This document shows positions 453 through 63,895 of a DNA stretch of 64,000 nt, in pieces (position 1 is the stretch's first letter; each line of letters begins with the position of its first letter). The stretch comes from Lytechinus pictus. Lineage: Eukaryota. The notes beneath the pieces are model-generated. The model was not told the DNA's origin. It saw nothing but the letters and a program-made list of their open reading frames with translations, and did not search any database. The DNA is taken from assembly GCF_037042905.1 (NCBI RefSeq), contig NC_087251.1, positions 43,092,001-43,156,000 of the forward strand, given 5' to 3'. A program made the translations under genes and the position numbers.

Positions 453-3400
453 TTCATTTCCATCTCTGCATATTTCAACCAGATTGTGACATTTCTGTGC
501 TCCACATCCAAAGCTCTTTCCCAAATTGATCTTGCTCTGTGGAAAAAGAAAATGTATAAACAAACAAGTGGAAACTTTATATATTGAATTCTATGCGATC
601 ATAAACATAACATTTGATTTTGAAGGGATCTTAATATCAGTGCTGTGAACACAAATACAAAGAACTGAATAAAATGAAAAGCTTTTTCACAGAGGAAATT
701 ATGCAAAAAGAATAGGAAAATAATGGGATAATCACAAACAAAAAAGCTTTAAAAAATGAACTCTCACATCCATGTAATATAAAAGATTTATTCAAATATT
801 AAGAGTTAAGTCAGATCAACCCCTATTCCTATTTCTCCAGTATTGATTTGCCATCAATATCAAGTTGAGATTTATTTTTGTTTTCTAAATCAATTAAGGT
901 GTTTTTTTTCTTTTCTAAGTATATATAAAAATGATACATATACAGTAAAAATATATACATGGCTTGAATAATATTAGTATATATAAAAAAATATTTTTTC
1001 CTTGTAACATCGGAAACACTGTTTATCAAATCATCCATATATCGAGTTTTTATTATGCTAACATTTTTTTGTGGAAAATATATTAAACATCTCTGGACCC
1101 TTTAAAATGAAAAAAAAAATTCAAATAAACAGTTATATATCAAATTGTAGATAAGATGACAATTTGGAGATGGTAAAGAATGATCATTTTGTATACCAAC
1201 AAGAAATATTTAAACAGATAGAGACTAAAAAAAAAATAGGAAAAGCCATAAATTCGGTAAAAGCAATTCTACATACATACATTCTCTATGCTTATAATCC
1301 TTACCGAGCAATTTCATTTTGACTCTCTTCCCACTTGGCATACTTGATCCAGTTTCCCACCATAGAACGGTTTTTGCGGATGTTATCCTCAAATTCTTTC
1401 CTCTTTCTCAGTCTGTATTCTTGCAGTTCATCTGGGTCTGTAATCTTTTGCTTTGGAGGCTGTAATTTGTTGGAAGGGATAGATAGATTATTCATGTAAT
1501 TCCATTTTATTATTCATGGGAGTGTTTCATGAAGAGTTTTGTCAGTGATTTTTCACTGGCTAACTTGCTCTTAGCCAATCAAATGCAAGGATTTCCAGTA
1601 GCTTATAACATCTAACTATTGGTGAAAACCAATGGCAAAACTCATAATGAAACATTGGCTAATTTTGCTCTCAAGCCATTCAAATGAATTTCAAGTAGCT
1701 TAAAACATCTGGCTGTAGCTGAAAATCACTGACAAAACACTTCTTCAACTATTCCCCAGAACGTCAGTTTGTATGGATTTGGATTGTCACAATAAATTCT
1801 GAATGGATCTGATATCAACGGAAACTGTCATATTTTTTTCTGATTCTGATATGTCAATGCCCATTCTATAAGATACAAAAGTATTGAAAGAGAACTATAT
1901 GGATTACATTCTGAATATTTCCATAACAATGTGGTAGTCATCAAGAATTCTAGAGAATTCGGGTCTGTTGGGTCATTAATGTTAACAAATTAAGGAATTG
2001 GGCATCTACTGTCAATGAGTTGATTCGCCAAAAAAGGTTAGTTCATGGGATGAGGACATGAAATGGGTCTACATTTTCCGAGAAATGATGATTTACACAG
2101 TAAAACATGATAATACATAATGATAATAACATAATAATACTGATTGTCATTTATATAGCGCTTTATCAATTTACGACTGCTCAAAGCGCTTCACAACTAT
2201 TATTACCCGGTCACTGGATTCATAGCATTTTAAGCAGCCTGTTAGGCGCACACTTGCTAAACCAACCACAATGACGGTTGTTTCCTACCGGTACCCAATT
2301 AGCACCTGGGTGAGAGTGGCAAAGTGTGGATTGACGCCTTGCCAAAGGATGCTGGCCATGGTGGGATTCGAACACACAGCCCTCTGATTACAAGGCGAGA
2401 GTCAGAACCGCTACACCACGGCGCTTCCACATACATGAAAATGCATGATAAGTCTAGAGAGAGATCATAAAGAATTCTTTTAATGACTGATTCATATGAG
2501 AAAAGATCAAGGGTTGTAAGAAAAGATGGGACAGAGCAAGAAAATGAATGAATGGATGAATGAATGAATGAAAAGATATATAGTCTTTGATATACTTACA
2601 GGAGGAACCAACTCAAGTTCTCTTTCCTTGGCCTCTCTGAGGATCTGTTCTGCAGTAATCTGCACCTCTGCAGGCATTTTGTTTTTAACCTGTTGGAAAA
2701 TGAATAAAAAAAAAACATACAGTAAGTATTTTTACATTAATGTAGGGGAGATTGGGGTTAGTTGGAATGCAGGGTAAGTTGAAACATTGTAATTATCTTT
2801 AACGCCTTTAAATAAATTTATGCAATACTGCCCTCAATTTATTGCCATTATCAACAGCAATCCACCATATTGGTGAAGTTAAAGGAAGTTTTTTTTTCTC
2901 ACCTTCTGAGTAATTTTTTTCTCTTTCAGAAATGTTTTATTATCTCAGAGAAGTTTATAGATCAAGTTGGCCAGTTTTGGGGTATAATGGACACTTGTAC
3001 CAAGCTACAAAACAAGGTTATTATTATGCCATGGTGAAGTCCCTTATTTGTGCTGTAAGTTTGTAAATGTCAAATGGGCCTCTGGGGTTAGTTGGAACAA
3101 AATTAAAGGGGCTTTTTGGAACATGTTCCAACTTACCCCAAACATAATTATGAATAAAAACATTGGATATGAGAAAAAAATGTATACAGTATTTCACACT
3201 CTTTTGAACATGTCTTGTAAGCCATGCTTATGTTTCTCAGTTAGGTCTGAGTGTGCATTTAAGGCCTATTATAAGCCCCTAATTCAATATCAACCCTTAT
3301 CAAACTGGGGGGGGGGTCAATTTGAGCCCCCGCCCCTCGACAAATTTTGTCACTATGCTGTCGCGCGAAATTTTTTGACCGCACCGCTCGCTGACTTTTT

Positions 3401-6400
3401 ACTTTCAAGTCTTGCGCATCATTCAAGACCAAATTAGCGATGCCCGGGTGCGCGGTTTTGTATGTGCATGTCGGAACCAAAATTGCTCAAAAAAGTGATT
3501 CCATACATGTACAAGGTCAATGCAAATTGTGTTTTTCATGGTCAATTTAGGGCAAATTTCATATGCTTATTTGCATAATTAATTTAAAATATAAACAATT
3601 ATTAAACAATTGTCATGTAAATTTGATGCAGAAGTACATGAAACTGCTGATACACTTAATTGCATGTAAAATCAAACACACACAAATACGCGGATTTCTA
3701 CTACACAGTTGGCTTGCGTGAGTGGCTGTACAATAGAAAACAAATTTTAACAAATCAGAATACACACCTTTTTATATTTTGAACTTGAAAAAAATAAAGC
3801 AAATAAGCTAAAACCATGTGATATCACAGTTGTAAATAGTTTTAGTATAATTCTTAATTGACCATGCAGTGTTCCACCAGAAATATTGCCGCCGAGATCG
3901 CACATGTTCTATCTATCGCAACGGCGGGAAATTTGACACCCTTCCAATATGGCTCGATCCCAAAAATCTGACATATCGGCAGATTGAAGACGTCTGATGC
4001 TCAGAGCCGAAAGAGGTCCGTTTGGTAAGTAAATTATCATTATTTACAGATTTCTATATCAAAATTATTGATAGCTAATAATTAAAATCGGCATTTGCAC
4101 AGATAAAATAGGGAGACCGCAAGATGTTTCTATCTCATCAACCACTTCATTAAACTGTTTGATTTTTTCAGATCTTGATGAAAATAGTGCAAAATAGAAA
4201 TTTACCAAATTTCGTAGTAATCCATGAATCGGTTTTTGGGTAATATTAATAATCAAATGAATTTCGAATGAAATTCAGCCAAATGCTCCCAATAGGCTCT
4301 GTAGAATAATCTGTCACAACAACACACACACAGCTGAAACACACAACTACACACAGAGTGCAGATATTTTGTGTGCAGTTTTGCATTGGGCTTTCTGGAG
4401 TAGTGGGGGAAGGAAAGGAAAAGTTAGACCTCTGTCGCGTTCGTTCTTGGTATCGATCGGCCATTTTGTTTTCAATATTGACAGGAAGAGAACGAACGAG
4501 ACAGAACTTTTCCTTTCTTTTGAGGGTCCAGTTTGTGCCTTGATGTCAGGATTCTGTGTCACAATAGACGTTCATCCATATAATTGAGGTAAGTGCATAA
4601 TTTATTTTCCCCCTTTTATTTGGTGTGCTATTGCGACCCCATTCTACCCCATTTTGGAGAGCATTTGTCTGCCTAGTATTACACGGACGAGTCCTGGGCT
4701 CCGGCCCGCTTTGCGGGTCGGTGAGTGCCATTCTGCCAAGATGCGGGCCGGAGCTCCCTGGGTTAGGTAGTAACCACTCATTCAATGAACAAGGTTATGA
4801 TATAACCTTGTTCTCAGTTACATCTCCATGTGTGGCAAAATAAGGGTGGCAATTTTGGCTTATTTTCTCTTTTTCTAAGGGACAAATGCTTGATTTTCTT
4901 ATACTGTCAGTTTTCAATAAAGCTATTCATCATAAAACTTGGCTCTTGTGTAAATTTGATTCTTTGAATTATTTTTTCTTAATTAAAAATAGAGATTGAA
5001 AAATGAAAATTTTCTTGCCATATTACTTTCCACCAATAGAGGGCGTACACAAAAATATGCCAAAAATACAAGTTTTTGAGTGCTCTGGTGAATACAAAAA
5101 TTACTAATGAAAAATAAATTGTAACTATGGAAATTAATAATTTTGATCACAAAAGTGATATTTTAAAGTGTGTGCTATGTACAGCATTGGCATACCATAG
5201 TCCTACCTGTAGATTCTCCACAGGCAGGATGGTTGCAAATGTAAAGTAGGTTATTTGGAGCATTTTATTTTCTTTAATTTGATACCAAAATTAGGGTGTC
5301 TTTGTGAATTTGAGGAGAAATGACATTCAGACTGACAGAAATGTAACATTTTTGAAAAAAAAATCCAATTATTGGCTGCAAAAAAGAAGAATGAAATTAG
5401 GACAATTTTCAGCATTTCTCTGCCATAGACTGTGTAGTTAAGAAATGGACACACACAATTCCAAATTTTTAGCTTCCGAGAGCTGTTATAAATTTATCAT
5501 TAATGCCAAAAACTTGTCCATAAAGAGTCCAATATAATTTTTTATGCTCTTTCTGATGGTATGATTTTTATAAAGATTTGGAAACCAGATCACAATGAAA
5601 AATTGCGACAAAGCGAAAAAAAATCGTTAGAAAACGCATGGGGAAATGGCAATCTCAACACACACACAAATAAGGGTTTGCAATTAATCTCTAAATCCTT
5701 ATTCAAAATGATCATATATATGATCATTTTGAATAAGGATTTAGAGATTAATTGCAAACCCTTATTTGTGTGTGTGTTGAGATTGCCATTTCCCCATGCG
5801 TTTTCTAACGATTTTTTTTCGCTTTGTCGCAATTTTTCATTGTGATCTGGTTCGTTTTAAACGGTGTGTTTTAAAACATGTTTTAAAACGCGTTTTAAAA
5901 CACCCGTTTTTTTTTACAAAAAAAACGTGTTTTAAAACACCGCATAGACTTGTGTGTTATAAATTTGCATGGATGTAATTTTAGATGAATGTTTTTTTTT
6001 TATACTGTTATTTCTGAAGTGGTGTATTATTTTCTTCTAACTAAAACTCTTTTTCAACACCACTCCTTTTCTCCTCTTTCTCTTTCCCCCTTCATTCTTT
6101 CTTTCTCCATTGCTTTGTCATGTTCCTCTTCTCCCTGTTCAATTGTGCACATCAATCCATATTAAGATTATTCTCATTTTAACAAACATATCTGAGTGTT
6201 GTGCTCACTTTTTGGACAGGGAAAGAAACACTTTAAAATGAGCTCAAATACATGTACATGTAATAGAAGTACTTAAATGAAATGGAAGTGTTGCACAAGC
6301 ACAATAATATTTTACAGATAGACTGTAAACCTGACATACTCTTGAGACACACCGTACACACAAAAGCAGGTAAAACTTTGTGCTTCGTAAAGATGAAGAA

Positions 6401-9400
6401 AGGTACTTTAAACAATATAAGATAATCAGCTAGCAAACCTTAACCCTAACAATTCCAGGGGACATTAATGGCCCCTAAAAAATTTGGGGATGCATGCATG
6501 GGTATGCAGTTATGATATACACCACAATTGCATATTATCAGATCCCGAATTGCTCAAAAACAAGATTTCATGTATACACCCAATGTGAGTTCTTGCCAAT
6601 ATTTGAATCTGTATCATTATTTTTACTTATTGTTAATGATTGGAAAATTATTGCCAAAAATTTATATTTGTAATAAAAAAAGTTTTAAAAATCTGCACAT
6701 AAGTTAAAAAGTAAAAAAAAAACATTACCGGTATTAACCTAGATAGACTGGGCTATTTAGTTTCCTAGAAGACTGACGGGGGCCTTATGACCTGGGCCGT
6801 CAATCGCGGGATCACAATGAAAATTGGCACATGCATTACCCATGGCATAATCTAAAAAACTATAAATCAAATTGTGCATAAATCTCATTGCTAATTTATG
6901 TGTAAAATCAAAAGTTTGCTCTAATTAACTAAATAATGCCCCTGAAAAAGTGAAATGCTCATTTTTGGTTCACAGACTCTTTATAGGAATCTGATCAAAT
7001 GTTCTTTAAAAAAAATTCAACATCACATTTATTTTCTTATGTATTTTATTTTTTCAATGGAAATAGTAAGGGGCTATATTTTGACCGTAAACAAGGTGAA
7101 ATTAATTGATTTTCATTGGTAAAAGGAAACTAATGACACATTTATGAATTTTGGCTAAAAACATTATTTGCATTGGATTTGTACAAGAATTCACGTTTTT
7201 GAGCAATTTTTGGTCTGCATGCACTTACAAAATGTTGTGTAATTTCGGAACCGCATACCAGGGGGTTGCAAAAGTTGCGTGAGACTCAAAAAAGGAAAAT
7301 CTGAGTGAGGCGGTAAAAAAATGCGCAGCAGATTTATCGCGAAAATGAAATAAAGCATATTGATTTACCGGTTATGAAATTAAGCTTTGAAACCCCATGT
7401 ACGTCAATTTCTTCCATTGTGCAAATTTATCGCGAAAAATGACAAGGGGGGCTGAATCAGCCCCTCCCAGTCTTTTTAGGGTTAAAAAAACATTCTATAG
7501 TAGGCCTATACTGATTTTTTTTTTATATGATCAGAATTCCTGAATTAAAAAATAAATAGTTCAAGGGCTTTATAATTTTATTTATAGATTTGAATAGAAT
7601 TTGTATTTCATGCACTAAAATTGGTATAATTGATTCAAATGAAATAAAGCATAACTGTAATGAAATTAAGCTTGAACCCCATGTACGTCAATTTCTTCCA
7701 TTGTGCAAACTCTTCTTGCCCCCCCCTTGACAAGACTCAATATATATCGGGAGTCGGGACTACATGTATATGTACATGTATTAGAAATAAAATATCAACT
7801 AACTTTTTTTTGTAGGCATTCAATTTCCATGAGTTAGTAATTTTTGGGGAAATATGAACTTTTCTGTTGGAAATTCATTAAAAAAATTGTGGTCATCTCT
7901 TATTTAAAACATCAAGAGCTTAAATCATACTGTATTAAGTGTATAGTTTAATTGATTTACAGAAAATTGCATCATTCGTTGAAAAAAAAACGTTTTAAAA
8001 CGATTCAAAACGTTTTAAAACAATAAAAAACGTTTTATTTGTTTTTTTTAATAAAAAACGTTTTTTATTACAACCCTGCTTACTATCAAAAGAAGCCCCT
8101 GAATTTTCTCTTTCCATACATGCCAAACACAAGTTAATAATCAATTCAGATAACATTTTTCTAGCAGCCTGAACTTCCCGAAAAAATGTGCCATATTTTC
8201 CCCTAAATCCATGAAATCAGCCTGTTTTATGCTGACACTTTTCAGTATGGCTTCAGACACCCTACCAAAATCATCTAATTTGGATAACGGGATCATATGT
8301 CAGAAATGCGTTGAACTTTGATTTTTCTCTCAAAACCATGACCATTTTTGGGTGTTGTGAATGCGGTGAAAAGGGCAAAAAATTTTGCTGTGTGCAGTAA
8401 AATTTGTACTTCCCCAACGTTACGGACGCGAGCGTCGCGTAACGTTGGGGAAGTACAATAAGAAACAAGATGGCGGCGTAAACATCGGGCAAGTCTCTTC
8501 CGTCTTTTCACAATATTTTTTCATTTTTTTGATGAATTCTTGTTTTAAAAATAACAACGAGAGTGTAGAAATGTCGGAAATGAAGTTTTATCCAATGTAT
8601 GGTAGGGGGTCCTAAAGCTACGCGGGTCCTAAAGCTATGCACCACTAATCGCGCATGCAGTTTTTAATGGCAAATGCGCACTCTGTGTGTGGAACTGTGA
8701 CTGCAGTGTGACGAACGATTCCTATTCATTTTCTTCTACAGAGGCTGCAGTAAATCTCTAAATGCAGAGAAAACCAAAAACTTTTTGGAATTTTAGAGTT
8801 ATATTCACTTAAATTTCATTTTATCCTAAAATATTATGAATATATTCTAGAAATTGAGGCACAGGAAATACTATTTTTTTGCATGATAAATCGAGTGCGT
8901 AGCTTTAGGACCCCTTCTACATCGGGTGGCGAAATCAAGGTGTTCGGAAAGGGAAATTATAAGATGGCAAATATAGCGATCTTAAACGCTTATATATAAG
9001 CGTCGAAATTTGTAGCCATCTCCTTGTATTAGTCTATATTATACGACGTGTCAAATTGTAGCGAACTAGTTCGCTATTTCCAGATCTCCTCTATATATAT
9101 ATACACGACGGGAAATTGTAGCGAACTAGTTCGCTATTTTCCAGATCTCCTCTATATACATACGACGGGAAATTGTAGCGAACTAGTTCGCTATTTCCAG
9201 ATCTCCTCTATATATATATATACACGACGGGAAATTGTAGCGAACTAGTTCGCTATTTTCCAGATCTCCTGTATATACATACGATGGGAAATTGTAGCGA
9301 ACTAGTTCGCTATTTTCCAGATCTCCTGTATATATATATACACGACGGGAAATTGTAGCGAACTAGTTCGCTATTTTCCAGATCTCCTATATATACATAC

Positions 9401-11188
9401 GATGGGAAATTGTAGCGAACTAGTTCGCTATTTTCCAGATCTCCTCTTAACGACGGGAAATTGTAGCGAACTAGTTCGCTATTTTCCAGATCTCCTCTAT
9501 ATACATACGATGGGAAATTGTAGCGAACTAGTTCGCTATTTTCCAATTCTCCTCTATGTATACGATGGGAAATTGTAGCGAACTAGTTCGCTATTTTCCA
9601 GATCTCCTCTATATATATATACACGACGGGAAATTGTAGCGAACTAGTTCGCTACAATTTCCCGTCGTATGTATATAGAGGAGATCTGGAAAATAGCGAA
9701 CTAGTTCGCTACAATTTCCCATCGTATGTATATAGAGGAGATCTGGAAAATAGCGAACTAGTTCGCTACAATTTCCCGTCGTTAAGAGGAGATCTGGAAA
9801 ATAGCGAACTAGTTCGCTACAATTTCCCATCGTATGTATATACAGGAGATCTGGAAAATAGCGAACTAGTTCGCTACAATTTCCCGTCGTGTATATATAT
9901 ATAGAGGAGATCTGGAAAATAGCGAACTAGTTCGCTACAATTTCCCATCGTATACATAGAGGAGAATTGGAAAATAGCGAACTAGTTCGCTACAATTTCC
10001 CATCGTATGTATATAGAGGAGATCTGGAAAATAGCGAACTAGTTCGCTACAATTTCCCGTCGTTAAGAGGAGATCTGGAAAATAGCGAACTAGTTCGCTA
10101 CAATTTCCCATCGTATGTATATATAGGAGATCTGGAAAATAGCGAACTAGTTCGCTACAATTTCCCGTCGTGTATATATATATAGAGGAGATCTGGAAAA
10201 TAGCGAACTAGTTCGCTACAATTTCCCATCGTATGTATATACAGGAGATCTGGAAAATAGCGAACTAGTTCGCTACACGCTACAATTTCCCGTCGTGTAT
10301 ATATATATAGAGGAGATCTGGAAATAGCGAACTAGTTCGCTACAATTTGACACGTCGTATAATATAGACTAATACAAGGAGATGGCTACAAATTTCGACG
10401 CTTATATATAAGCGTTGAAGATCGCTATATTTGCCATCTATAAAATACCGGTTCGGAAAACACGGCGGGATTTTCGTATTAGTGAGTTTTGCGATATTTT
10501 CTTCTTGGTTAATGATCTTTAGAATGTTTGCCACAAATTAGTGAAAGATATTTGTTGAAATATTAAAATTGGGATAGTTTTTATTGTTTGAAAACAAAGT
10601 GCGTAGCTTTTAGGTCCCCCCATCATACATGATTTAGAATTAGAGCTAGGCCTAGAAGGCTAGATCTTTTAGAAGGAAAGTAGAAATCTCGGGGGTGAAA
10701 GTTTCAGGTTTTGGCTTCCATTGTGTGGGTCTATGGGATAGAAGGCCTGGCTTCGTACGAGAGTGACCTTACGTTAGTAAATGATTTTTACTCTCTAACT
10801 TTGAAGCCGCCTGGCTACCCCATCCTAAATAATTATGCAATTCTGTTAACCATCATCATTTTTTCAATTTGCATTTTTATTTTTTAATGGAAATATTCAA
10901 CATTTATACTAAGGAAATAAACACGATTTTTATTTGATTCAATTATTTTTTGTTGTTGGCCACTTTACTCTAACGTTACATGTAAATTAAAGAAAAACAT
11001 CAATGACGATACGAGTTTACCCTAACTTTATCCTGACCGGAATAACAACTGATCTTTGTTCACATTCATAGCGTGTTATATTTTTTGGAGAAATTGCAAT
11101 CAATTATTTAGTTATTATTGAATGAAGCAATTTAAAGGAAACTTACCTTCGCAACTTTGGGAACTTTACTTTTGCTAGAAGAAGCCAT
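453..11188 (-). CDS. CRNKL1: Crooked neck-like pre-mRNA splicing factor (SYF3/Clf1, HAT repeats); first four coding exons, gene continues beyond the left edge
   Basis: GT-AG exons with consistent phases: 11188-11147 ([14 protein letters not shown]), 2689-2600 ([30 protein letters not shown]), 1459-1305 ([52 protein letters not shown]), 536-453 ([28 protein letters not shown]). This is the conserved crooked-neck N-terminus. Confidence 0.96.
2110..2428 (-). mobile_element. tRNA-derived SINE
   Basis: Reverse strand shows A box GTGGTGTAGCGG, B box GTTCGAATCC, core CCCAGGTGCTAATTGGGTACC and a (TAT)n tail. Confidence 0.85.
5583..5852. repeat. Perfect 270-bp palindrome with no spacer
   Basis: Arms AACCAGATCACAATG...ATGATCATAT|ATATGATCAT...CATTGTGATCTGGTT, centre 5717/5718. 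The ORF track gives the same peptide on both strands (5561..5845+ and 5590..5832-). Confidence 0.93.
6738..7481. mobile_element. piggyBac-like MITE (TTAA-flanked)
   Basis: TTAA|CCT...AGGG|TTAA. Reverse complement of the copy at 39197-39895. Confidence 0.7.
8605..10620. mobile_element. MITE-like host element into which the foldback element inserted
   Basis: GGGGTCCTAAAGCTACGC (about 8606, repeated at about 8624), with inverted copies GCGTAGCTTTAGGACCCC (about 8897) and GCGTAGCTTTTAGGTCCCCC (about 10601). Confidence 0.55.
8962..10439. mobile_element. Foldback-type element: long inverted termini plus inverted tandem arrays of about 51-62-bp units, each with an 18-bp palindrome
   Basis: About 95-bp unique inverted ends (AGATGGCAAATATAGCGATC... 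/ ...GATCGCTATATTTGCCATCT, one mismatch seen). 23 copies of TAGCGAACTAGTTCGCTA. Array polarity switches at 9645/9646. Flanked by ATA on both sides (possible 3-bp TSD). Confidence 0.85.
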
Positions 11189-12627
11189 GTTTATGATAGT
11201 ATGAGCGTCAAGACCATGAAAATCGTCGATTAGTTTCAAGTTTTTTCAGTTTTTTTTCCTCGGAAGCGAATCTACAAAAAGCAGTTAGACGGAGATGGCG
11301 CTTTGAAATATGGCTTGTTCGAGTAAATAAAAAACTAAAAAGGTATTAAAATATTCATAACTCTTACATGCATTCATAACCTCTAAATCGTAGCCATAAA
11401 AATATTAAAAAAGATAAATTTAATTTTTTGTACAAGATTTTATTATTTTTTAAATATGTAGTTGTATTTTTTTAGTCACATAATTAAGAGTTTTGTTGCC
11501 ATAGAGCTACCGCCGCTAAAAATATGCTAGATCTCACCCTTTAATTTTTTTTCACGGATCGAACACAATTTTGTAGAAGTTAAGAATAAGGGTGTGTATG
11601 TTATTTCATATAATGAATTCAATATAATGTCCTTGTGTATTGATTTCTGTTTGTGTATGCGTGATTTTGAATATTAATAAATGTGAATAAAAACCTTGTG
11701 AAAGAATGGAATGTTTGAATTAACCGACCGTGGACGTCGCGTCGACAGTCTCAGAGAGTGCCAGTCGGGGCCCGTGACCGCGCGTGTGCTTGCTTCCCGC
11801 CGCTGCTGGTGTCTGGACTGTCTATGCCATTGGAGTGTCGTGATCGTGCGACTCCCACCCAGGCCAAGGACCTAACTTGAGAAGGCCGCAGAGCTCAACC
11901 AAGTTAAGATCCCTTAAACCGGTCAAGAAGAGCGACTGGGGGCGGGGCAGGGGAGCCGGGAGGGGAGGTTCAAAATCATGAAATTATCATCAGTTAAACT
12001 TTAATGTTGAGAAAGTTCTTTTCAAAAAAAAAAAATCCCCCAATTTGGCCAATATTGGCAAAAAACATTGGCATCCGTCAGCCGTCAACCGTCAACTGTC
12101 TAGATCTACCTCGGGCGATGGTTCGTGTAGGCTCCACTAAGTTGCACTTCAGTCTTCACTACCGCTACCCTCCGCTACACCTAACAGTTACATGTACCTG
12201 AACCTTCAGGTAATATAGCGGAGGGTAGCAGTAGCTAGTGAAGCGTAGTGGAGCCTATATACGAACTATCGCCTGAAGTAGCATCCATCATGATCCAGTA
12301 CGTAAGCAGCTCATGTCGGAGTCGATGTTATATTTATTCAGATCCAAATTATGTTCTTTGACTTGGTTGGCGTGATCATGCCCTGTTTCGGTGGGTCAGC
12401 ATCGAAGTTTAATTTCACTCGTTCGTATCTCTAATATTTAACTTTTTTTGTTAGTAAATTCTTGAAGCTGTGGACAACGTGTGTTCACTAAAAATAACGA
12501 TGGGTTTCCTCATTCTCATAATAGACTAGAATTATTTCTAAGACTTATGTTCCTTTCTCAGTGACACATAGAATAGGCCTACACAGCTATCACCTGGTAA
12601 TCAATCTGAATCTCTTTAGTCTTGCAG
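11189..12627. promoter_or_regulatory. Bidirectional promoter / 5'UTR region between CRNKL1 and CFAP61
   Basis: Divergent ATGs about 1.45 kb apart; CpG-rich patch 11725-11970; YY1-like AGATGGCG at about 11294; X-box-like GTTGCCATAGAGCT at 11495-11508. Confidence 0.6.
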
Positions 12628-31600: not shown

Positions 31601-34600
31601 TCTGTGTCTCGTCTCCCCCAACGGTCTGCCGGGTCACATGTCATACGATGAGAACAGATCTCGGTTCCTTTCTACCAGTCACTGCTACACGCATGATGAG
31701 CTCTCTCAGATCTCTCTCAGGTCATGGGTCAATGTGGTCTCGTCCAAGATGACCGGCATCAATAGGTTGGTATTTCTCACTAATGCCCCCCTTTCTCAAC
31801 ACCAATGAATTAAAGAAAAAAAAAAACATGGGCCCATATTCTGAATTCTGGTTTAACTTAGACCATGGTCCAACTCTGTGCTAAAATTAAGGGAGGCTAA
31901 AAATGTCACAATTTTATTGACATGGTATACTTCTTATGTTTAGTGTGACCTTTCCAAACCTTTGATGATGAAGACATCTATCTAAGAATGACTTGAGAGT
32001 CAAATGAGCTGATACATTGAACCTCTACTGTTAAAGATTTATGTCACCATTGGCTAACCATAGTTAAACCACAACTTTAAACCAGATTTTGAATTAAACC
32101 CTAGTGTTGTGTTGGGATCGGATCTGTGATTATTGAAGGGAAGCGTAATAAGGAAACTTTGGAGAAAGTTATACGTTCAAAATCACATGAGTATTTAATC
32201 ATCAATATTCAGCTACAGTTCAAAGTACATGAAGATTCAGAGTATATCAGGAGACGATGAATATAAAATAATTTAGAAGTATCAGGTTGAGATTCAAAGT
32301 GAACTTAAATTAATACTGGATGGACATCTAAGTCTTGAAGTCAGTCAGTCTATCTGGATGAGTGTTCGTCTAGTATTCTACAGTATATTCTCTCTTGTAT
32401 ATATCATTAGTTTTGGGGGTGTAACAATTTAAGGTGGGAGTGATCTCTAAACTCGATCTGATTGGTCTACAGGTAACTGTCTATCAAACTTTCTCTGGTA
32501 TAAGGGGTGTGGTGATGCTCTGTGCAAGTGACTAGGGCTGGAAGAGTGAGTCATACTTCTTCCTTGAAGTTAGCTGACGTCACTGAGGGTTGGTCCTATA
32601 ATGGTCAAGGTTTAGGAGTTAAATGGTATTGGGGGTTTGGGAATTCTTAGATGACATTGGGGGAGTTTGTAAACAAGTGAGGGTGAATGACTGAAAGGAT
32701 AAACAGGAAGTTAAATACATACTACATAACATCCCCTTTCTTTGAAAAATGAGGCTCCTCTCCTCATTAGGGAAAAAATGTATACAATTAGATTACAAAA
32801 GTTATTTTGAAAAGTGAGTGAAACCAGAATAGTGTATCTCAATTGTCCACTGTACTTTCACTCTCGCTCTCATACTCATTATTTACCTTAAAAGGATTAA
32901 AGTTATTCTACATCTTAACTAATTTCAACTAAAAGATATAACTAACACATCGAACACATTCACTTAATATATTGAAATAAAGTAACACACAAGCAAATTA
33001 ATCAACTAATCAACCAATAATGATACTACAGTATATACATTAACTCGTGCAGACTCATGCACTTTGAAATCACTGAAAAGCTAAACTAGTTTAATTAATA
33101 ACAGTAATAACAAGAAAATTATGTATGCTATATAAATCTTAGCATCTGATCAACATGATAATTAGCGGAAAGTTAAACAGGTGCGCTCTAGAAATGACAG
33201 TTTCTCTATGTTAGGAAGGCCTAATATGTACTTCAAATGAAGCAATCAACATAGAACTCAATTATTACTATCACTCCTATCCTGTTGCATACCTGCCAAC
33301 CATTCCGATTTTGGCGGAATTATACCGATTTTTTAGCCTCCATTCCGAATTCCGAATTTTTAAACCGAAATTCTGATTTTTGGGTCAATCAATATAGTGT
33401 TGAAATTATTGAAACGGCTGTATGATGCGACTAACGCATAAGCGGCTGTAACATACGACTAACGCATAAACAACTGGAGCGCACGGCTAAGTGCTAAGTG
33501 CACAGTTCCATTGCAATTGCATGTGAAAATTACGAGCAGCGCGCGGCCGATATTAGCGTTGACTTCCGGAACAAAATGGCGGCTGACATCGGCTCGCGAA
33601 AGTGCCAGTTTTCAGTGAGGACACGTTTTCAAAATCCACGAACATCGGAAAAACCGTGAAAAATTCACTTTTTTAGACCCCTTGTTTCCTAACTACGATG
33701 TATAGAATTAACGATGGTGATATTTTTGACGCGAAATATGGTGATTTAGTAAGAAAATTTCACTTTTTATTCGAGGTTTTGCCCTTTTCGCCGGATGATT
33801 TTGTATTGTGGAATGAGTTAGTGAATGAGTCGTGTTTTGGTGTCTAGAGTGTGTTGGTAATATCATTGATGAGTCTGCTGACCGGCTGCTTAAATTACCC
33901 GGCCGCTCGGCCGGCCGCACCGTGCACATGGGGAGGCTCTGCTGCAGTTACTCAAGTTAGATCTATCCCTACGCAATGTTGAAATTGATCTGTACTTTAT
34001 TTTTTCGAATAATTGTCAAATTTGTGAGAAAGAAAGGAAATTATCAACTTTCGAGTCAAGTTGAGCCATCGGAGCTGAACGCCAAATCTACTTGCTTCGC
34101 TTGCCTAAACTCCCGGCGCCCGAGTTGCTGCGCCTCAGCCTCCCAGTCTCACCGGCGCACCGCAAGTGCAGTGGTGGTTGCGGGTCGGGCGTATGCCGCC
34201 GTAAGCTTCGGCTCCGTTTTTGTCATGGCTGAAAATCTGCTTTCTTATGCCAACAAGCACTTATCTAATAAAATTTATGATATAACCTTGTCCTCAGTCA
34301 CTACTCCTGTGTGGTGAAATATAAACATGAATAAGATGACAATGTTTGGCTTATTTTGATGCATATGATAGACTTGATATAAATGATAAATAAATGTTAG
34401 ATTTTTTTGCACTCAGTTTTTAATACAGTAGGCCAACTTGAATCTGAATTAATGATACAAAATATCCCTTGGCCCAAAACTCAATTGTATTCTTGAAATT
34501 ATTTTTTTTCTGATTAAAAAGAGAATCTTTCCAGAAACTTTCCAACAATAGAGGGCATCACAATTTATTAAAAAATTAAATTATTCCTAAGTCTATATAG

Positions 34601-37600
34601 ATTTCAATGAAAACAAATCACACCTGAATGAAACTGGGTGTATTTTTTTGTCACAAACGTGATATCTTCAAGACCTTTGTTTTAATGTTTAATTGACAAA
34701 TGATATTATATTACATATAAGTAGACTAACGTTACATGTAGGTCATCCTGTGGTATGGTAAATAGGGTAAATTTGCTTTAAAAGGGGTAGAGAAATGCTA
34801 ATTTTACATGCAGAAAATGCAGAGTCCCTACCATGGGAGGGGGAAACCATCTCGCGCGCGACCCGTTCGGGGCCCTCGTGGCTTTGATACTGATTTTTTA
34901 TTATCAAAGGTTGGCAGGTATGCTGTTGGAGAATATCTTTCCTTATTCATGTTATAAAAGAACAAAATAAACAAGTACTTTCAAACTTGTTAGATATCAT
35001 CATTATGACAAGTATAAATTCAAACTTATCTTGGTAATCAACCTTGCGATGATAAATATTTGTTCAATAAAATGTATATTATCCTAAACTTTAATAATTA
35101 AACACATTGTCAACAATTACTACTAAGTTCTAATTCAATCACATACATATCACACATTTAGCAAAACATTAATCAATCACTTTTTTACATCAAATACAAT
35201 CGTCTGAAAAATCTCTGTCTGATAAGTTGGTCAGTATGTCACAGTAAACTTTAATGGTCTCGATGGGATTTGGAGGTTTCAGGGCAATTCTCTGTAATGG
35301 TCATTTATGTCATTAATGTTATTGTACCTGTCAACTAGTATGGATATTGTAATAAAACAGGTGGATTGGGGTACAGCTTGCCTTGTGTTGAGGATTAGTT
35401 TTTCTTAGGGTCTGTTCACACTTGAAAGATTTCAGACAATGGTGATGTTACCAAAGTAGTTTCTATACACTCCACAACAAAATTAAATTAATCAATAAAT
35501 TTGTGAGCGGTGGGCGTCCTCATCATAGGGAAATGTGCTTCTATTTTCACTTCTATTTCCGAAGTATATTTATGTCATAGGATTACGCACCAAATCTTCT
35601 ATATGAGTTTCACTCCTAATTTGCTCCGATAATATTTAATGGTTATTTTCAAGTACATTCAAACTTGATTTGAACTCATGCTATACACAAAGCGGCGAAA
35701 TACTAAAAGAAAATAATAAAAACCAAAATAAAATCGTATTTCTTGACACATCTGGCCTATGTGTAGTCCAGTATCATTCATCACTGGAAAATTCTTTGCT
35801 TTACATGTTAATGTTAACCAACTACAACACCATCATGATTTTGATTGAAACATAAAACATTCTCGCTTCGTAATATCATCTCCCTTGATTACATCACATC
35901 CAAATGTTGTTTGAGAAATAATGAAATATCACATATTACATTAACTTGGTTAATCCTTATCTAGCTCGGTATTCTTTGGAATTGTCAATGTCAATGACTT
36001 CGTCTCAAGTCAAAAAGGTGGTTTAATTTTCATCATGGTAAATTTTAATAATCTGGCTAGAGACAGTGTTTGTAAAATTTTGGAATGTTGTTAATACAAA
36101 GGTCAAATCAAAAGGTTAAAGATGGTGGTATTATAACAAATTAATGAAACTGTGTACACTGAAAATACATATACACATGTACATGTTACGGACACTAAAT
36201 TAAATGTAGCCTCTCGCACTCTCTCATGCCAGTGGAACAATAAAGAAAATGGTTTCACTTACCGATCAGAGATGAAGAAGATATTAAAAATGATTAAGAT
36301 AGAGTATAATGAATAGCACAATTAAAGTAATCTCCAGTGTTCTTATACATGTATATTCAGGGAAGAGTCTAAGTCATTCATTATCTATAGTTGGGAATTT
36401 GTTGTCGCAGTGGTGGTCTGCGTCGTTGATGTTGACGATGGCGTCTTGTCATGTTTCCAGTTAGTGTCATTGTCATCTGTGTTGTCATCGATGTCCTTGT
36501 CCTATTGTCCCTCCGTCTATATCGTCCGTCTGCTCTTCCGTCTGTTCATCCGTCTGTGTGTTTCTGTAGTGCGGTAATTGTAGTCGTTGATTTTTGTCAT
36601 CCAATGTAGCTCAGGTTCTAACAGGGCCAGTGCTGACACTCGTAGGATAGATAATATCTTAACTTAACTTTCTTTTCATGAGAGCAATTCTCAGTCTTTT
36701 CTCGAAGCACATATCCATGATAAAAATTAAGTGTTTCTCAATTAGAGACCCGGGTTCTCCGCCATGTCGTGTTGGGATCGGATCGGTGATTATTGAAGGG
36801 AAGCGTAATAAGGAAACTTTGGAGAAAGTTATACGTTCAAAATCACATGAGTATTTAATCATCAATATTCAGCTACAGTTCAAAGTACATGAAGATTCAG
36901 AGTATATCAGGAGACGATGAATATAAAATAATTTAGAAGTATCAGGTTGAGATTCAAAGTGAACTTAAATTAATACTGGATGGACATCTAAGTCTTGAAG
37001 TCAGTCAGTCTATCTGGATGAGTGTTCGTCTAGTATTCTACAGTATATTCTCTCTTGTATATATCATTAGTTTTGGGGGTGTAACAATTTAAGGTGGGAG
37101 TGATCTCTAAACTCGATCTGATTGGTAACTGTCTATCAAACTTTCTCTGGTATAAGGGGTGTGGTGATGCTTTGTGCAAGTGACTAGGGCTGGAAGAGTG
37201 AGTCATACTTCTTCCTTGAAGTTAGCTGACGTCACTGAGGGTTGGTCCTATAATGGTCAAGGTTTAGGAGTTAAATGGTATTGGGGGTTTGGGAATTCTT
37301 AGATGACATTGGGGGAGTTTGTAAACAAGTGAGGGTGAATGACTGAAAGGATAAACAGGAAGTTAAATACATACTACATAACACTAGTTCAAAGTACGGG
37401 CCATTCAGACTAAAGATTGCTCAGTAGAATAGACAAAGGACAAAGTCATAGATTCTGTCCAGTCGTCGTGTGTTATCTGTCAGATCTCACTCAGGTCATG
37501 GGTCAATGTGGTATCTCTTTCTGAGATGACTTGTATCAATCGGTTGGTATTTCTCACTAATCCCCAACCACAACAACAAACGAAATACATCAAGCCCAAA

Positions 37601-40600: not shown

Positions 40601-43600
40601 TTGTCAAACCGTAAAAGCTCCTGACATCTTTGGTAAATTTAGTGAGGAAGGTTTATAGAGCCTTTCTGTCTTCTTTATTTCCATCTTTCAAACTCAATAA
40701 ATATAATTTGTTTTCAATACTCATTAGAAATTTTGATGAAGGACTCTACCTCAAAGAGAGGGATATGATTTAAGTCAAGCATATTATAATGAAATATTTT
40801 AAATTCTTGCAGAAATGAAGTTTTGGGTGGGGTGGAGTGTGAGATATCTATGAAGTATCAATTTGTTATATTGGGATTCTGTTTCACCAATACATAAATA
40901 ACAAGCATTCAGTAATCACCTCTTTTGACTGCTTGGTTTCAGCTTCTACAATAGTCATGACGTAGATAATGTGTCAAGTAACTCATTTAAATTAATTGTT
41001 TATTCATGTTATCCGTTGTCTTCAATTTCAGAACAAACCTAATTTTGTGGATAACTTATTAAGAGAGTGTGGGATGTACTGGATAAAGGAGAATGCTACT
41101 GGCACTCCATAAAACATTAAAACATTGCTGTGAGAATACCAATTTTAACAATAATGATAATATTCCACTTTTATATAGCCCTTAATACATCAGAACAACT
41201 TGTCTAAGCACTTTACAGATATATTATTACCCCGGTCATCGGATTCAATCAGTCATACCCGCACACAATGTATGCACATCCTCCACTTCCTGGGGAGTAT
41301 TTCAGTCGCCGGTGAGGCGCACACTTTAATGGACAAGCTACATTGACTTTCATATCCTACCGGGTACCCATTTAGCACCTGGGTCGAGAGTGGCAAAGTG
41401 TGGATTAATCCCTTGCCAAAGGACGCCAGACCACGGTGGGATTCGAACACACGGCCCTCTGTTTGCAAGGCGAGATTCAGAACCACTACACCACGGCTCC
41501 TTTTACAGGTTCAGACATTGTCAGATACATGCCCTGCCCTTGTGTATTTAGAGAGGAATGTTATTGTTAATGGCCTTATTGGCTCTCATGCTCTTATCAA
41601 ACTGAGCCCAGAACAGCTCCTGCCCGTCCTCATCATCCGTCCACAACATGTAAGGTTTGTTCCTACTCAAGAACAACCTGACAAGGTACGGCAGGTTCTC
41701 ATCCTCGATGTCCTCAACGAAGATAAGGATGACCTTGTCTAGCTGTGTGTCATTGACATGCTCAAATGCTAAACGAAGCTTGGTCATAAACCAGGGATCA
41801 GCTATAGACTGGTTGCTTACGAGCAAGATAGTCTTGAAGCTGTTGTCAATGACATCGTTGATGGCGTCGATGTAAAACATTCCCAAGGGTAAGTCGCCGT
41901 CCCCGTAGACGACGCGCTGCAGACGTGGCAACCTCTCCTCCAGTGCAGGCTTCATAACCTGTAGGACCCACCTCTCTTCAGCCTCCTGGTACATGATGTT
42001 GAGGTGAAATTCATGTCGGTTTGCAATGAAATCCTCCTCCATTTCTTCGTAGCCGAAGATGGCTAGCTTAAGCAGGAAGAATTTGTGATTGAGCCACCAC
42101 CGTTTGTCGTATGCTGTTACCAGAGATACGATCAATGTTAAAGCCAGCAAAGACAGTCCGCTTATGAGTAAGGCATCAACGCCGCAGAAATCAGCCGGTG
42201 TGAATGATGTGATGGGCTTACCAATCATCGCTTTGAAGGATGTGTTGTAACATTTAGTTTGATCAGGTCTTATAAGGACAACGTCTTCATCTCCGAGAAA
42301 ATGGATAAACCAGCTTAATTCGCAATTGCAAGAGAACCAATTATTTGACATATCAATTCTTAACGTGTTATTTGTTGGGAAGAAAGTTTCCTTTTGTACC
42401 TCACTTATATGGTTGCCGGAAAGATAAAGATGTTTCAGATATGGAGTTGTTGCAAAGAGGCCTTTGTCAATGACTTGTAGTCGGCTGTTCCGAAAGAAGA
42501 GGGTTGTCAGATGATCTAATCCTTTGAATATCCCAGCAGAGGTGGTGATGATAACATTCTCACTGAGATACAGATTCTTTAAGGATGTCAAACCTTGAAA
42601 TACTCCCGGTTTGAGATGAGCGATTTTACATACAGACAGATCCAATGTATAGAGCTTAATAAGAGGAGTGAATATGCCAGGATCCAAGCCATTCAGGTCA
42701 TTTCCTCTTAGGTTTAGCTTTTTCAGAGAGACCAGCCCCTCAAAGAGCGATGACTGGGTTACGTTTTCCTTAAAAAGGTCATAATGGTGTAGATTATTGT
42801 AGCACATTCTTAAATCTTGCAGAGATGAAGTCTTGGTGAATTGGTCCAACGATGTCCACTCTGTTTTTGAATGTGATATATCCAGCGTATTTAGGTTTTT
42901 CATTTGACTGAAGACTCGGTCTAGATATTGATTTTGCTCCGCGATAAGGTAGAGCTCTTTGACGGATGGAATATTATTGAAAGTATCTGGTGAATAAACG
43001 CTTATTATATTGAAGGATACATCAACGACACTTATGTTGGGTAAGTTACCGCTAAAGAAACGTGGATGGAGGGTGGGGAATTGATTATTTGAAAGGTTTA
43101 GATTTCGAAGCGCCGGATTATCCCACTGTTGACGATCATCTATGCGTTTCAGAATATTATGGGATAGGTTAAGTGTGTGAAGGGCATAGAGACCTCGGAA
43201 TGAGTCAATATTCAACCTGGCGATTTCATTACGTGTGAAAATTAATTCTTGTAGTTTAGCATTACAAGAAAACATGCCAGGTATTATGGAATTGATATGG
43301 TTGTCGGATAGATCCAAGTTTATCAAAGAATCAAGACCGCAGAATGAATCTACAAACATTTTTTTTATTTTGTTCCTCTGGATCTTTAGTGTGCGAGTTT
43401 GATTAAAGCCCCGGAAGGCATACGGGGGAATATAGTGGATGATATTTCCACTCATGTCAATTGACCTTATGACTGGGAAACTGGCATTGTTGTGACTAGA
43501 GTTATCAAGTTTAACAATGTTATGTATTCTGCAGCCACACACTGACATTGAATCAATATTCATACTGCCAAGAAAAGAACTTGAGTAAAAATCATGTAAT

Positions 43601-46600
43601 GCATTCCTATCCAGAACAAGTACCCTTATGTTATTGAGATGTGAGAAAACTCTGGCTGGTAAGTTGTGCAAGTCATTGTCTTCTAAGGAAATTGATTGCA
43701 GTGAGCGGTTTTGCAGTGGTTTAAAGTCGGAAGCTTTGATTGTGGAAATCTGATTATTTGCAAAATTGATCTGAGATATTGTTCTGGAATGGGAGAATGC
43801 TGTAAAATCCGCCACACGGATGGAATTATTCCCAAGAAAGATTTTTCTGAGTAGAGGTAGTCTAGAGAGTGACGTGGTAGGGACAGATGAAAAGTTATTG
43901 CTGAAAAGCATCAGGTTTGACAATATTTGATTAGAGTTGAATAAATTGGGTTGCAGGTGGGTGAGCAAGTTGCCTGTCATGTCCAGCGAGCGCAGCTTCT
44001 TTAGAGGCAAAAATGTTCCAACTTCTAGATCAGAAATATGGTTTGCTTTCAGACTGAGTGAGTTCAGCTCCTGGAGACCTTCAAAGGAGTCATTTTGTAG
44101 AGCTCTGATTCGGTTATATGAGACATCCAGTGTGATTGTGTTCGATGGTAGCTGAGGTGGTATTGATGTCAATCCTAGATGGGAACATGTGGCTTTGATT
44201 CCTTTAGTCTTGTTCTGCAGTTTACAGCTGCTAGTGGACAGGTCTGTAGATCCAACCAAGCTTTCTGTGAGCGCAAGTTCCAGAAAAGCGCTTGCTGATG
44301 TGAAGATAAATAAAAAGATACACATGCTGCATGATGCTGCATAGAAGTGTGCCATATGAAATGGTGCCATTCTGTTCTGTGGTGTCTAAAGCTGCATTTG
44401 ATTGTTGAAAAGCAATAACACACTCAGTCAAATCAATCATTTGCCGTAGAGTCAAGAATGGCAGCAGCAAAGCACCATCTTGAGATGTAAAATGTAATAT
44501 CGCCTAAGGACCGGAACAGGGCAACGCAAAGTCCTCTTGCAGAAATGGGGCTACAGTAGGGATGGAGACACTACCTGCAACTGCAGAGAGGATCGGATGA
44601 CACGACACCTTTTGTACTGCCCCTCCTACCAGAGGAGTGCACTGCAGAAGATCTGGAGACTCTTTAACACCCAAAGCAGATCTTGTGCCCTTCAATGAAC
44701 AGGCTTGTGTAGCTACCAGAGAAGGAGGTGTAAGAAATGTCCGATGAATGAAATTCAGTTCTGCCCGGTTGATACGGTCTTGGGCAGAGATGCGCTGTCA
44801 GAACAGTCGTCAAGAAAACTAATCAAATCATGTCTTGGAATCTCAACCAGTTATTTTTGATAAACTCTCTTCCACACCTAATATAAATGACCGGAATAGA
44901 ACTGAAACTATCCACTTATGAATATATTTCTACATTTATGATCGTATGACTCTGCACAGAAGTACTAATGATTTGATCAACAAGAATTAATTGTCTTTTA
45001 AATTGGTATTGAAACTGCACATATGTCATTAGAGTGAGAGTTTATGGTGAATGACATTTATTTTTGTCATTACTAAATCTGATTCATGATCTTTTATAGC
45101 TTTACAAGTGTCGTCAATTATTAAGATATGACACTAAACTCTATACACAGCTTGAGAGTTCTCTTCTGATAGATGCATTCAATTTTATCTATATTTTGAT
45201 ACAATTGAACTCATAGATAAATATTTAATTCCCAAGTTCTAGATATTTTTATCAAAAGCAAATTGATTATAGCCACTCATTAGGGACTTGATATTTTTGT
45301 CTCGCCTGAACAAAGTTCAGTAGAGACCTCGTAATCACGTTTCCTCAGCTGTTGGTCTGTTGGAATTTTTTTTTTGTTCAACTTCCTCTCATTTCTTTAT
45401 ATCTGCATCAATTTTGATCACACTTGGTCCGAAGGATCCTTGAGTAATACCACATGTTTGTTGTTGAGGATGATGGGTCAAAAGTAATCTAGGGGACAAA
45501 AGGTCAAGTTTTTGTTCAAACTGCTCTCACTTCTTTATTTCTGCTTCAATAAGCCTGTTCACGGTTGTAAACTGCGCACGAGCAGAAAAAGGTCATTGGA
45601 GACAACCATGAAGGTGGCTTTCAAATTCACTGACATAGGCATTTGTGATTTGATGATTATTCATGTATTCCTTTCAAAATATTTATCACATCCAAGCTGA
45701 AGAGTAATAAATAGAGCCTTCATAATCACTGGTATTTGACAGTAGCCTAAACGATAGTCAAATGTGCCAAAGGCAGACAATAAAACAGATTTCCAAACTT
45801 TATCCCTGATGTACTATTCTAGTCACCTGGTTTATACAATGCCTTTTGTTCTTAGAATTTGAATACTCTACCGGTAAAGCTTACGCAACATCTACATTTG
45901 AAAATGATAGTGCTTATCCTAATGAAAAATCACAAAGGTCATTTGAGAAAAGTTGATGAGCTAACCGTGAACTGGCTTATTATGTTTACTTTTGGTACGT
46001 ATGATCCTTGGGTAATACCACAAGTGACGTCACGGCTTTAAACATGGAGGACGTGTAATTTTGGGAGCTCTCGACCCCGCTGCTTTTTTTTACTTTTTTG
46101 GAGGGACTCTTTTGTTTTGGTGAGCTCAAACATTGAATTATTTTGCTATTAGTGAATAACTGAACACATTTTTTCAGCATTCAGTACCACTTCTAATGGA
46201 AAAGTCTTATTTCTTAAGGAGTGCAACCATGTCGTCCGAGGGCCAACGCACCAAACAATCTACACCGTCAACGTCAACGGCACAAACCAGTACACCAACG
46301 CCGGAGGGCACGGGTGAACCGGAGAGTGCATTCACGCTCGCAGATGTTATGCGCTCTATACGGGAATCTGAAGTTAGAGTCTGTGCAAAATTAGATGGTT
46401 TACAACACAATTTGGATCAGATCAAGACGAAAGTGGATGACTTAGAAGCAGCAGTTGATTTTAATGCATCGAAGGTCGATATTATCGAGAAAGAGAAGCT
46501 TCCTCAGATTGAAAGCGACCTAAGGAAGGAGGTTGATCAACTTCGTACAAAGCTCATCGAATCAGAGATATACCAGAGGAAGAATAATCTCTTATTCTAC

Positions 46601-63555: not shown

Positions 63556-63895
63556 TATGAAAATACTTACCATGATTTTCTTATTTACGAGATAACTGGA
63601 TATACTCATTTGATTTGCTAGTTCATTACGATTAACTTGCACGCCGAATAAAAGTACACAATTTTTCCTGCGCGCGCGCAGCATCTCCCTACGCACGCAC
63701 TATCCCAAGATCATCACGCAAAAAGGCGTCCATTTCCTCTCATGAGCCTGAACGCAAGACATGTTGCCACGTAAGGCGAGGGGTCGGTGGGAGGGTTCAA
63801 ATGAGTATATCCAGTTATCTCGTAAATAAGAAAATCATGGTAAGTATTTTCATAATTTACATCAATAACTGGGATATACTCATTTGATTTGCTAG
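63556..63895. mobile_element. Probable DIRS-like (tyrosine-recombinase retroelement) terminal ITR/ICR structure, or another element end
   Basis: Perfect 58-bp inverted repeat (63556-63613 / 63797-63854) followed by a third partial direct copy (63865-63895). No coding sequence inside the window to confirm. Confidence 0.5.

What the first reader, a model, noticed from the sequence alone, without database searches (positions are those of the whole stretch)
8962..10439. Foldback element made of palindromes within a palindrome: 23 x 18-bp dyad array that flips polarity at its centre
Seen: about 95-bp inverted ends enclose 10 tandem units (ACGA[C/T]GGGAAATTG-TAGCGAACTAGTTCGCTA-TTTTCCAGATCTCC-(TA)n), one symmetric central unit (GACGGGAAATTGTAGCGAACT|AGTTCGCTACAATTTCCCGTCG) and 12 units in reverse orientation, so the whole 1.48 kb can fold back with no loop. 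Diagnostic unit variants (the short CTCTTAACG unit, the CAATTCTCC unit) recur in mirror image on both arms, which gives higher-order structure. The termini carry another dyad (CGCTTATATATAAGCG), and ATA flanks both ends. Known: foldback transposons with modular repeats exist (Drosophila FB, sea-urchin TU elements), but I do not recognise this unit. Inference: a non-autonomous element whose 18-bp dyad is a binding or recombination site for a dimeric transposase/recombinase, and whose arms meet by recombination or template switching at that dyad. It is transcribed as part of CRNKL1 intron 1 and would give about 680 bp of near-perfect dsRNA.
Basis: partly seen in the sequence, partly recalled or inferred. 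Interest (0 to 1): 0.78.

Follow-up and report, generated by a model that had tools for sequence, protein, structure and literature searches.

The report
Foldback transposon in sea urchin intron
This is a 1.5-kb gene-less jumping element in an intron of a sea urchin splicing gene, made of two mirror-image repeat arms joined at a shared palindrome; it is a tidy new example of a known kind of selfish DNA.

Summary
The array is real: 23 identical 18-bp dyads, 10 forward and 12 reverse spacers, switching at 9637-9654. The element spans 8951-10450 with a 9-bp target-site duplication (GTTCGGAAA), not ATA. Reads from uninterrupted copies of the host repeat (158 reads, 8 contigs) carry one copy of that 9-mer and break exactly there; one further contig has the same right end in a new flank. 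The outer 11 bp are asymmetric (5'-GGG / 5'-CGG), as in the Mutator/foldback family Tm1. The arms are not mirror images about the centre: perfect symmetry spans 46 bp and the right arm has four extra inner units. Best reading: a non-autonomous Mutator-type foldback element of Lytechinus whose interior was deleted between two dyads, the commonest long direct match between opposed arms, so no recombinase is needed. It lies in CRNKL1 intron 1 and is predicted to form 700 RNA base pairs; expression and editing were not shown. No transposase could be linked (no genome held). Two unchecked earlier notes describe what looks like this family elsewhere in the genome (3.6 kb, 30 kb). New member of a known kind.

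The parts
8942..8950 (+). left copy of the 9-bp target-site duplication GTTCGGAAA
   Evidence: single in uninterrupted host-repeat copies, table 7
8951..8961 (+). left terminal 11 bp (5'-GGGAAATTATA), not inverted relative to the right end (5 of 11 match); 10 of 11 identical to a motif present in every array unit
8962..9058 (+). left subterminal region: three half-site variants of the dyad arm (8962, 8974, 9013), an 18-bp palindrome at about 8986-9003, and a degenerate unit; one mismatch to the right arm
9059..9636 (+). left arm array: dyads 1-10 with 10 forward spacers of 33-44 bp
9623..9668 (.). junction: 46-bp perfect palindrome centred on dyad 11 (9637-9654), which both arms share
9655..10342 (-). 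right arm array: 12 reverse spacers and dyads 12-23; four extra inner units (9655-9858), a 281-bp five-unit higher-order repeat, and a 7-bp local duplication near 10278
10343..10439 (-). right subterminal region, inverse of 8962-9058
   Evidence: matched by contigs from three runs
10440..10450 (-). right terminal 11 bp (5'-CGGTATTTTAT on the minus strand)
   Evidence: an X8 contig matches to 10450 and then enters another flank
10451..10459 (+). right copy of the 9-bp target-site duplication
8600..10625 (.). host element: a 517-bp high-copy MITE-like repeat with about 26-bp inverted ends, flanked by TA, itself inside an older repeat
   Evidence: (depth, loose ends)
2690..11146 (-). CRNKL1 intron 1 (8457 bp); the element starts 696 bp after the donor
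   Evidence: exon 1 covered by RNA reads and one contig

Best explanation
A non-autonomous cut-and-paste DNA transposon of the Mutator-like (MULE) foldback type in a Lytechinus sea urchin. SHOWN: it is an insertion of 8951-10450 that duplicated 9 bp of a high-copy repeat; it has long modular inverted arms, short asymmetric G/C-starting termini and no coding sequence. INFERRED: (a) a parent had two near-identical arms of tandem units of about 57 bp around an interior; (b) the dyad reads the same on both strands, so it is a direct repeat between the opposed arms, and slippage or break repair between left dyad 11 and right dyad 13 (counted from their ends) removed the interior and left one shared dyad; (c) unit gains and losses made the arms unequal; (d) the half-site of the dyad, which also occurs three times near each terminus, is the binding site of a transposase supplied in trans, and the array raises its loading; (e) the intron hairpin is a by-product. 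My odds: transposon with these ends 0.97; Mutator superfamily 0.8; junction by ordinary homology 0.75; dyad as transposase site 0.65.
For: 9-bp repeat exactly 11 bp outside both symmetric arms (chance 0.0005). 158 reads of X18, 6 contigs of X1 and 2 of X8 have loose ends directly before 10451. The X18 consensus matches the window's left flank 8914-8941 at 27 of 28 bases plus a 2-base gap; X1 and X8 match only its last dozen or so bases. One X8 contig follows 10327-10450 with 2 differences and then a new flank. One X1 contig stops matching at 10439, where the two ends stop being symmetric. Tm1 has 9-bp TSDs, tandem motifs in the arms and asymmetric ends CGGTTAA / CCTACCC-3' (PMC3169594); this element read on the minus strand starts CGGT and ends CCC. 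MULE TSDs are 8-11 bp, and most MULE ends start with G/C bases. Muta1 subterminal repeats raise transposase binding and excision. 120 of 163 direct matches between the arms are the dyad. Dyads are 23 of 23 invariant while the 22 spacers fall into 11 types. A unit seen in X10 keeps the 57-bp period with 8 of 39 spacer bases changed (table 5c; my hand count).
Against: No transposase is linked: none in the window, and no genome is held. The second insertion site rests on one contig of depth 3.4. The empty sites are paralogous copies of the host repeat, not an allele of this locus. The junction was not tested with reads. Units of 57 bp with a palindromic core differ from the 12-15-bp non-palindromic motifs of Tm1 and Muta1. 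Invariant dyads may reflect palindrome self-correction and young age rather than selection. Foldback structure has arisen in several superfamilies. The same junction would result from a once-symmetric centre that later lost four left units.
Confidence: 0.72

Rival explanations
1. The same anatomy, but moved by a transposase of another superfamily with long TSDs (Merlin, P/Galileo-like, a 9-bp hAT or Academ lineage) or by an unrecognised enzyme.
For: Foldback arms have evolved in several superfamilies; Galileo carries a P transposase. No enzyme is linked here.
Against: A 9-bp TSD, G/C-starting ends and asymmetric CGG/GGG termini together match Tm1 and MULEs. P, hAT and Academ ends start CA or TA (recalled, from no call), which these do not.
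Confidence: 0.12
2. The dyad is a site-specific recombination site, and a recombinase actively joins or flips the arms there.
For: The junction lies at a dyad. The sequence can be parsed as 13-bp arms around an 8-bp symmetric core, perfect at the junction and imperfect in other units, a geometry like tyrosine-recombinase sites (recalled). A symmetric core would allow both orientations. Dyads are invariant.
Against: Homology alone predicts a dyad junction (120 of 163 matches). No unit is flipped on its own: there is one switch in 22 spacers, whereas an active orientation-blind recombinase should scramble the array. A 9-bp TSD is a DDE-type footprint. No recombinase ORF is in the window.
Confidence: 0.07
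3. The element arose by fold-back copying (template switch) of one arm at the central dyad, a de novo inverted duplication.
For: The arms differ at only 2 of 581 ungapped aligned bases, and the centre is a palindrome.
Against: Copying one arm would give identical termini and symmetry at the centre. The termini differ at 6 of 11 bases, symmetry ends after 23 bp on each side, and the variant register is offset by four units.
Confidence: 0.05
4. The outer element is real but its centre is an assembly collapse of a longer copy.
For: The junction was not checked against reads; tandem arrays are error-prone.
Against: A collapse would need a jump across only 18 bp of shared sequence. The arms carry private variants, and the flanks are different and join correctly in other host copies. 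The window's TLR protein is recorded on a 49.7-Mb contig.
Confidence: 0.04

Closest known systems
Tm1, Mutator/Foldback family of Meloidogyne, Phantom subclass (Gross and Williamson 2011, PMC3169594; passages and the first half of the Discussion read)
   Same: 9-bp TSD; arms of tandem motifs with unequal counts left and right; short non-inverted terminal motifs, one end starting CGG, the other ending CCC-3'; mostly non-autonomous copies, some with inverted sequence between the arms
   Different: Terminal motifs are 11 bp here, 7 bp in Tm1; units are about 57 bp with a perfect 18-bp dyad, against about 14 bp; no interior at all here; no transposase linked here; no sequence similarity beyond the terminal bases was shown
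Muta1 of Aedes aegypti (Liu and Wessler 2017, PMC5499845 and PMC5225508; passages read)
   Same: 8-9-bp TSD, GGG start, foldback arms with subterminal repeats in unequal numbers in derivatives; supplies the tested mechanism (more repeats, more binding and excision)
   Different: Muta1 ends are symmetric with a 10-bp terminal palindrome; repeats are 12 bp; arms are 145 bp, against about 700-800 bp here
Tetris of Drosophila virilis (PMC4079207) and Galileo two-TIR copies (PMC3573991); passages read
   Same: Non-coding foldbacks made almost wholly of long arms with internal tandem repeats; Tetris has 8-10-bp TSDs and is placed in Mutator on that basis; its repeat shares sequence with the outer part of the arm, as the unit does here
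   Different: Tetris has 220-bp units and a middle domain; Galileo belongs to the P superfamily
Sea urchin TU elements (Liebermann 1983; only the citation in PMC4079207 was seen, details recalled)
   Same: Modular foldback elements in a sea urchin
   Different: As recalled: 8-bp TSD, about 15-bp outer repeats, a non-repetitive inner domain.

Membership tests
Mutator-like elements (MULE), foldback type | 8-11-bp target-site duplication | tested here: met
   9 bp, perfect; single copy in uninterrupted host repeats; range from PMC6446971
Mutator-like elements (MULE), foldback type | long terminal inverted repeats (over 100 bp) | tested here: met
   161 of 162 and 418 of 419 bases match between the arms
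Mutator-like elements (MULE), foldback type | tandem subterminal repeats within the arms, unequal in number | tested here: met
   10 and 12 spacers
Mutator-like elements (MULE), foldback type | G/C bases in the first three positions of each end | tested here: met
   GGG and CGG; PMC13359780 passage
Mutator-like elements (MULE), foldback type | dispersed copies with the same ends in other flanks | tested here: inconclusive
   One X8 contig (depth 3.4) has the same right end and a new flank; X10 summed depth is 417-776 on the terminus against 21 at exon 1, which the tool says is no copy number. No second TSD was read. Two earlier notes are unchecked
Mutator-like elements (MULE), foldback type | MULE DDE transposase between the same ends in an autonomous partner | not testable with these tools
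   No genome held; none recognised among 38 ORFs of 100 aa or more in the window, judged by eye
Tm1 / Phantom sub-TIR elements | short asymmetric terminal motifs outside the inverted repeat | tested here: met
   11 bp, 5 of 11 matching; Tm1 motifs
Tm1 / Phantom sub-TIR elements | FLYWCH plus MULE transposase | not testable with these tools
   No partner reachable; the Phantom paper is not held
P superfamily foldbacks (Galileo) | 7-8-bp TSD and CA termini (recalled) | tested here: not met
   9-bp TSD, GGG/CGG termini
Sea urchin TU elements | sequence identity of the outer-domain repeat and termini | not testable with these tools
   No TU sequence held; no paper contained the term 'TU elements' among those listed
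   Empty-site reads break at 10451, not 10440; ATA and the 8 bases after it belong to the element

The most novel reading that the evidence does not exclude
Probability: 0.08. Interest if true: 0.7.

Novelty: new member of a known kind. Interest (0 to 1): 0.27.

Why it matters
It gives exact ends, TSD and a candidate binding motif for an apparently young Lytechinus transposon family, which makes its autonomous partner findable in the genome. It shows a simple rule: when a subterminal repeat is itself palindromic, opposed arms share many direct repeats, so the element can lose its whole interior and become a near-total palindrome. As a predicted 700-bp hairpin 696 bases after the first splice donor of a core spliceosome gene, it is a natural test case for editing, small-RNA production and splicing effects if the insertion is polymorphic. 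None of this changes what is known of foldback elements unless the partner enzyme proves unusual.

Tried and rejected
Whole genome: none held, so no copy census and no transposase search. Other copies in the window: none; the best outside hits were 10-21 bp with E 0.8 or worse. Collections: the 18-mer gave 0 hits in viral contigs and 2 in metagenome contigs. Both are single dyads without unit or terminus and were rejected as family members. A 22-mer and a terminal 21-mer gave 0 hits in prokaryote genomes and viral contigs. Rfam: 0 matches in 8400-11300. Earlier findings by sequence and by relatives: nothing. Expression and editing: X18 (about 6% of the run read) had depth about 6 on exon 1 and 0 over 10913-11143. 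The A>G rows at 10303 and 10345 lie in reads with 5 or more other differences, and 10345 also occurs in DNA contigs, so they were rejected as editing; 76 of 116 difference rows and 278 of 302 loose-end rows were not shown. ORFs across the array (90-105 aa) are translations of the repeat. ATA as TSD: rejected. Literature: no description of this unit found in searches (literal 11-mer, 0 papers), 48 and 58; Repbase and Dfam could not be searched, so it may be catalogued there. The Phantom paper is not held. No supplements were opened.
Full report
Observation. The window holds 23 exact copies of the 18-bp palindrome TAGCGAACTAGTTCGCTA, all between 9059 and 10342. The first 10 spacers read forward, the last 12 in reverse, and dyad 11 (9637-9654) is shared. 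Tandem Repeats Finder gives a 57-bp period for both arms. The 1.5 kb contain 26 perfect palindromes of 16 bp or more; the rest of the window has 10.

Ends. A scan of all boundary pairs found a perfect 9-bp direct repeat, GTTCGGAAA, at 8942-8950 and 10451-10459, 11 bp outside each symmetric end. A symmetric 9-bp match occurs at 0.05% of random position pairs, a 3-bp match at 2%. The right flank is a high-copy repeat, which gives natural empty sites. I laid 4 of 20 listed runs on 10286-11275. In X18, 158 reads have loose ends directly before 10451, and their consensus matches the window's left flank (8914-8941) at 27 of 28 bases with a 2-base gap. Six X1 contigs and two X8 contigs break at the same place and agree with the last dozen or so bases. 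Uninterrupted copies therefore hold one 9-mer and lack all of 8951-10450. One X8 contig follows 10327-10450 with two differences and then enters an unrelated flank, so the right terminal 11 bp belong to the element; this rests on one contig of depth 3.4. One X1 contig stops matching at 10439 and carries the right-arm base at the one subterminal position where the window's arms differ. I read it as the left-type end of another copy, but its loose letters were not shown. These empty sites are paralogues, not alleles of this locus.

Arms. The two termini match at 5 of 11 bases (5'-GGGAAATTATA and, on the minus strand, 5'-CGGTATTTTAT). Inside them the arms match at 161 of 162 and 418 of 419 bases. 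They are not mirror images about the centre. Perfect symmetry there spans 46 bp. Left spacers 3-10 correspond to right spacers 22-15; the left arm has two extra outer units and the right arm four extra inner ones. The half-site of the dyad recurs in variant form three times in each subterminal region, and the left terminus is a 10-of-11 match to a motif in every unit. All 23 dyads are identical, whereas the 22 spacers fall into 11 types. A unit read from X10 contigs has the same period with 8 of 39 spacer bases changed, and X1 shows a related variant (table 5c; hand count). This fits constraint on the dyad, but palindrome self-correction and young age could give the same.

Context. An exon at 1304-1459 matches crooked neck-like protein 1 (E 2e-19). 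Exon 1 ends at 11147 before GTAAGT and exon 2 starts at 2689, so the element lies in an 8457-bp first intron, 696 bp after the donor. It is nested in a 517-bp TA-flanked MITE-like repeat (8600-10625), itself in an older repeat. The window's TLR-like protein clusters with Lytechinus records, 96-98% identical to two from L. pictus and 93% to the cluster representative, so the host is Lytechinus, most likely L. pictus. The minus-strand RNA is predicted to pair 1400 of 1500 bases (-1206 kcal/mol) in a branched fold whose longest perfect helix is 132 bp. X18 covered exon 1 at depth about 6 and the unique intron at 0, so dsRNA and editing were not tested.

Mechanism. Insertion with a 9-bp duplication is shown; the rest is inferred. 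In opposed arms only palindromic words form direct repeats. Of 163 maximal direct matches of 10 bp or more between the arms, 120 are the dyad, 1 is the subterminal palindrome and 42 are TA tracts of 10-14 bp. A deletion of the interior by slippage or break repair would therefore most often join two dyads, and would produce the observed junction: left-arm sequence before the dyad, right-arm sequence after it. The offset register fits a join of non-equivalent dyads. A centre that was once symmetric and later lost four left units would look the same. Fold-back copying of one arm is unlikely because the termini differ. A recombinase is not excluded, since the site can be parsed as 13-8-13 (geometry recalled), but there is one polarity switch in 22 spacers and no singly flipped unit. 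By analogy with Muta1, where more subterminal repeats gave more binding and excision (PMC5499845, passages), the units are most likely transposase-loading sites. No partner could be sought: no genome is held, and I recognised no transposase among the window's 38 long ORFs.

Known kinds. MULEs have 8-11-bp TSDs and long arms (PMC6446971, passages), and most start with G/C bases (PMC13359780, passages). The closest description is Tm1: 9-bp TSD, tandem motifs in unequal number, and asymmetric ends CGGTTAA and CCTACCC-3' outside the inverted repeat (PMC3169594, passages and half of the Discussion). The present element, on the minus strand, begins CGGT and ends CCC. Tetris (PMC4079207, passages) and Galileo two-arm copies (PMC3573991, passages) show the same overall design, and Galileo shows that the design alone does not fix the superfamily. 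PMC5225508 was read in passages. The defining transposase is untested, so membership of Mutator is likely (about 0.8), not shown. TU elements could not be compared.

Novelty. I found no description of this unit in searches; Repbase and Dfam were out of reach. The scan itself holds two unchecked notes from this genome that read like the same family: a 3.6-kb foldback with 18-bp palindromes (e1-7787428) and a 30-kb element with 57-bp palindrome-cored arrays (e1-7880695). I could not see their sequences, and look-ups by sequence returned nothing, so identity is not established. What sets this copy apart is the long unit with a perfect dyad and the complete loss of an interior.

Verdict. A real, young-looking, non-autonomous foldback transposon with corrected ends 8951-10450 and a 9-bp TSD, probably Mutator-like. 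New member of a known kind; interest 0.27. The open lead is the enzyme in full-length copies.

Noticed in passing
window 5583-5852: A 270-bp perfect palindrome with no loop and no mismatch, also in CRNKL1 intron 1; no clear TSD found.
   Followed up: partly
window 32105-32731 and 36765-37383: Two 98% identical direct repeats of about 620 bp, TGT...ACA, with CTAG on both outer sides: an LTR element; the 4-kb interior has no ORF over 118 aa, so probably non-autonomous.
   Followed up: partly
window 11188 (minus) and 12640 (plus): CRNKL1 lies head to head with a multi-exon gene that I take for CFAP61 (name and the same arrangement in vertebrates recalled, not tested).
   Followed up: no
window 41548-44385 (minus): Single-exon Toll-like receptor-type ORF of 940 aa, clustering with Lytechinus proteins.
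   Followed up: partly
window 46160-51608 (plus): Two long ORFs (309 and 1253 aa) that look like an intact L1/Tx1-type LINE, judged by eye.
   Followed up: no
window 59399-60356, 57404-57552, 12106-12281, 63797-63887, 8404-8458: Further imperfect palindromes, 72-93% self-complementary, probably old MITEs.
   Followed up: no
L001 1140-1275: The same 18-mer sits once in an unrelated eukaryote-like contig, inside an element ending in TACTGTA with repeated TATAACGAAC / TATAGCGAAC motifs, like pogo-type ends (recalled). No similarity beyond 19 bp; chance or convergence of a binding motif.
   Followed up: partly
window 8940-8950 with 10460-10463: The target site is itself a small imperfect palindrome: GTGTT before and AACAC after its centre.
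   Followed up: no
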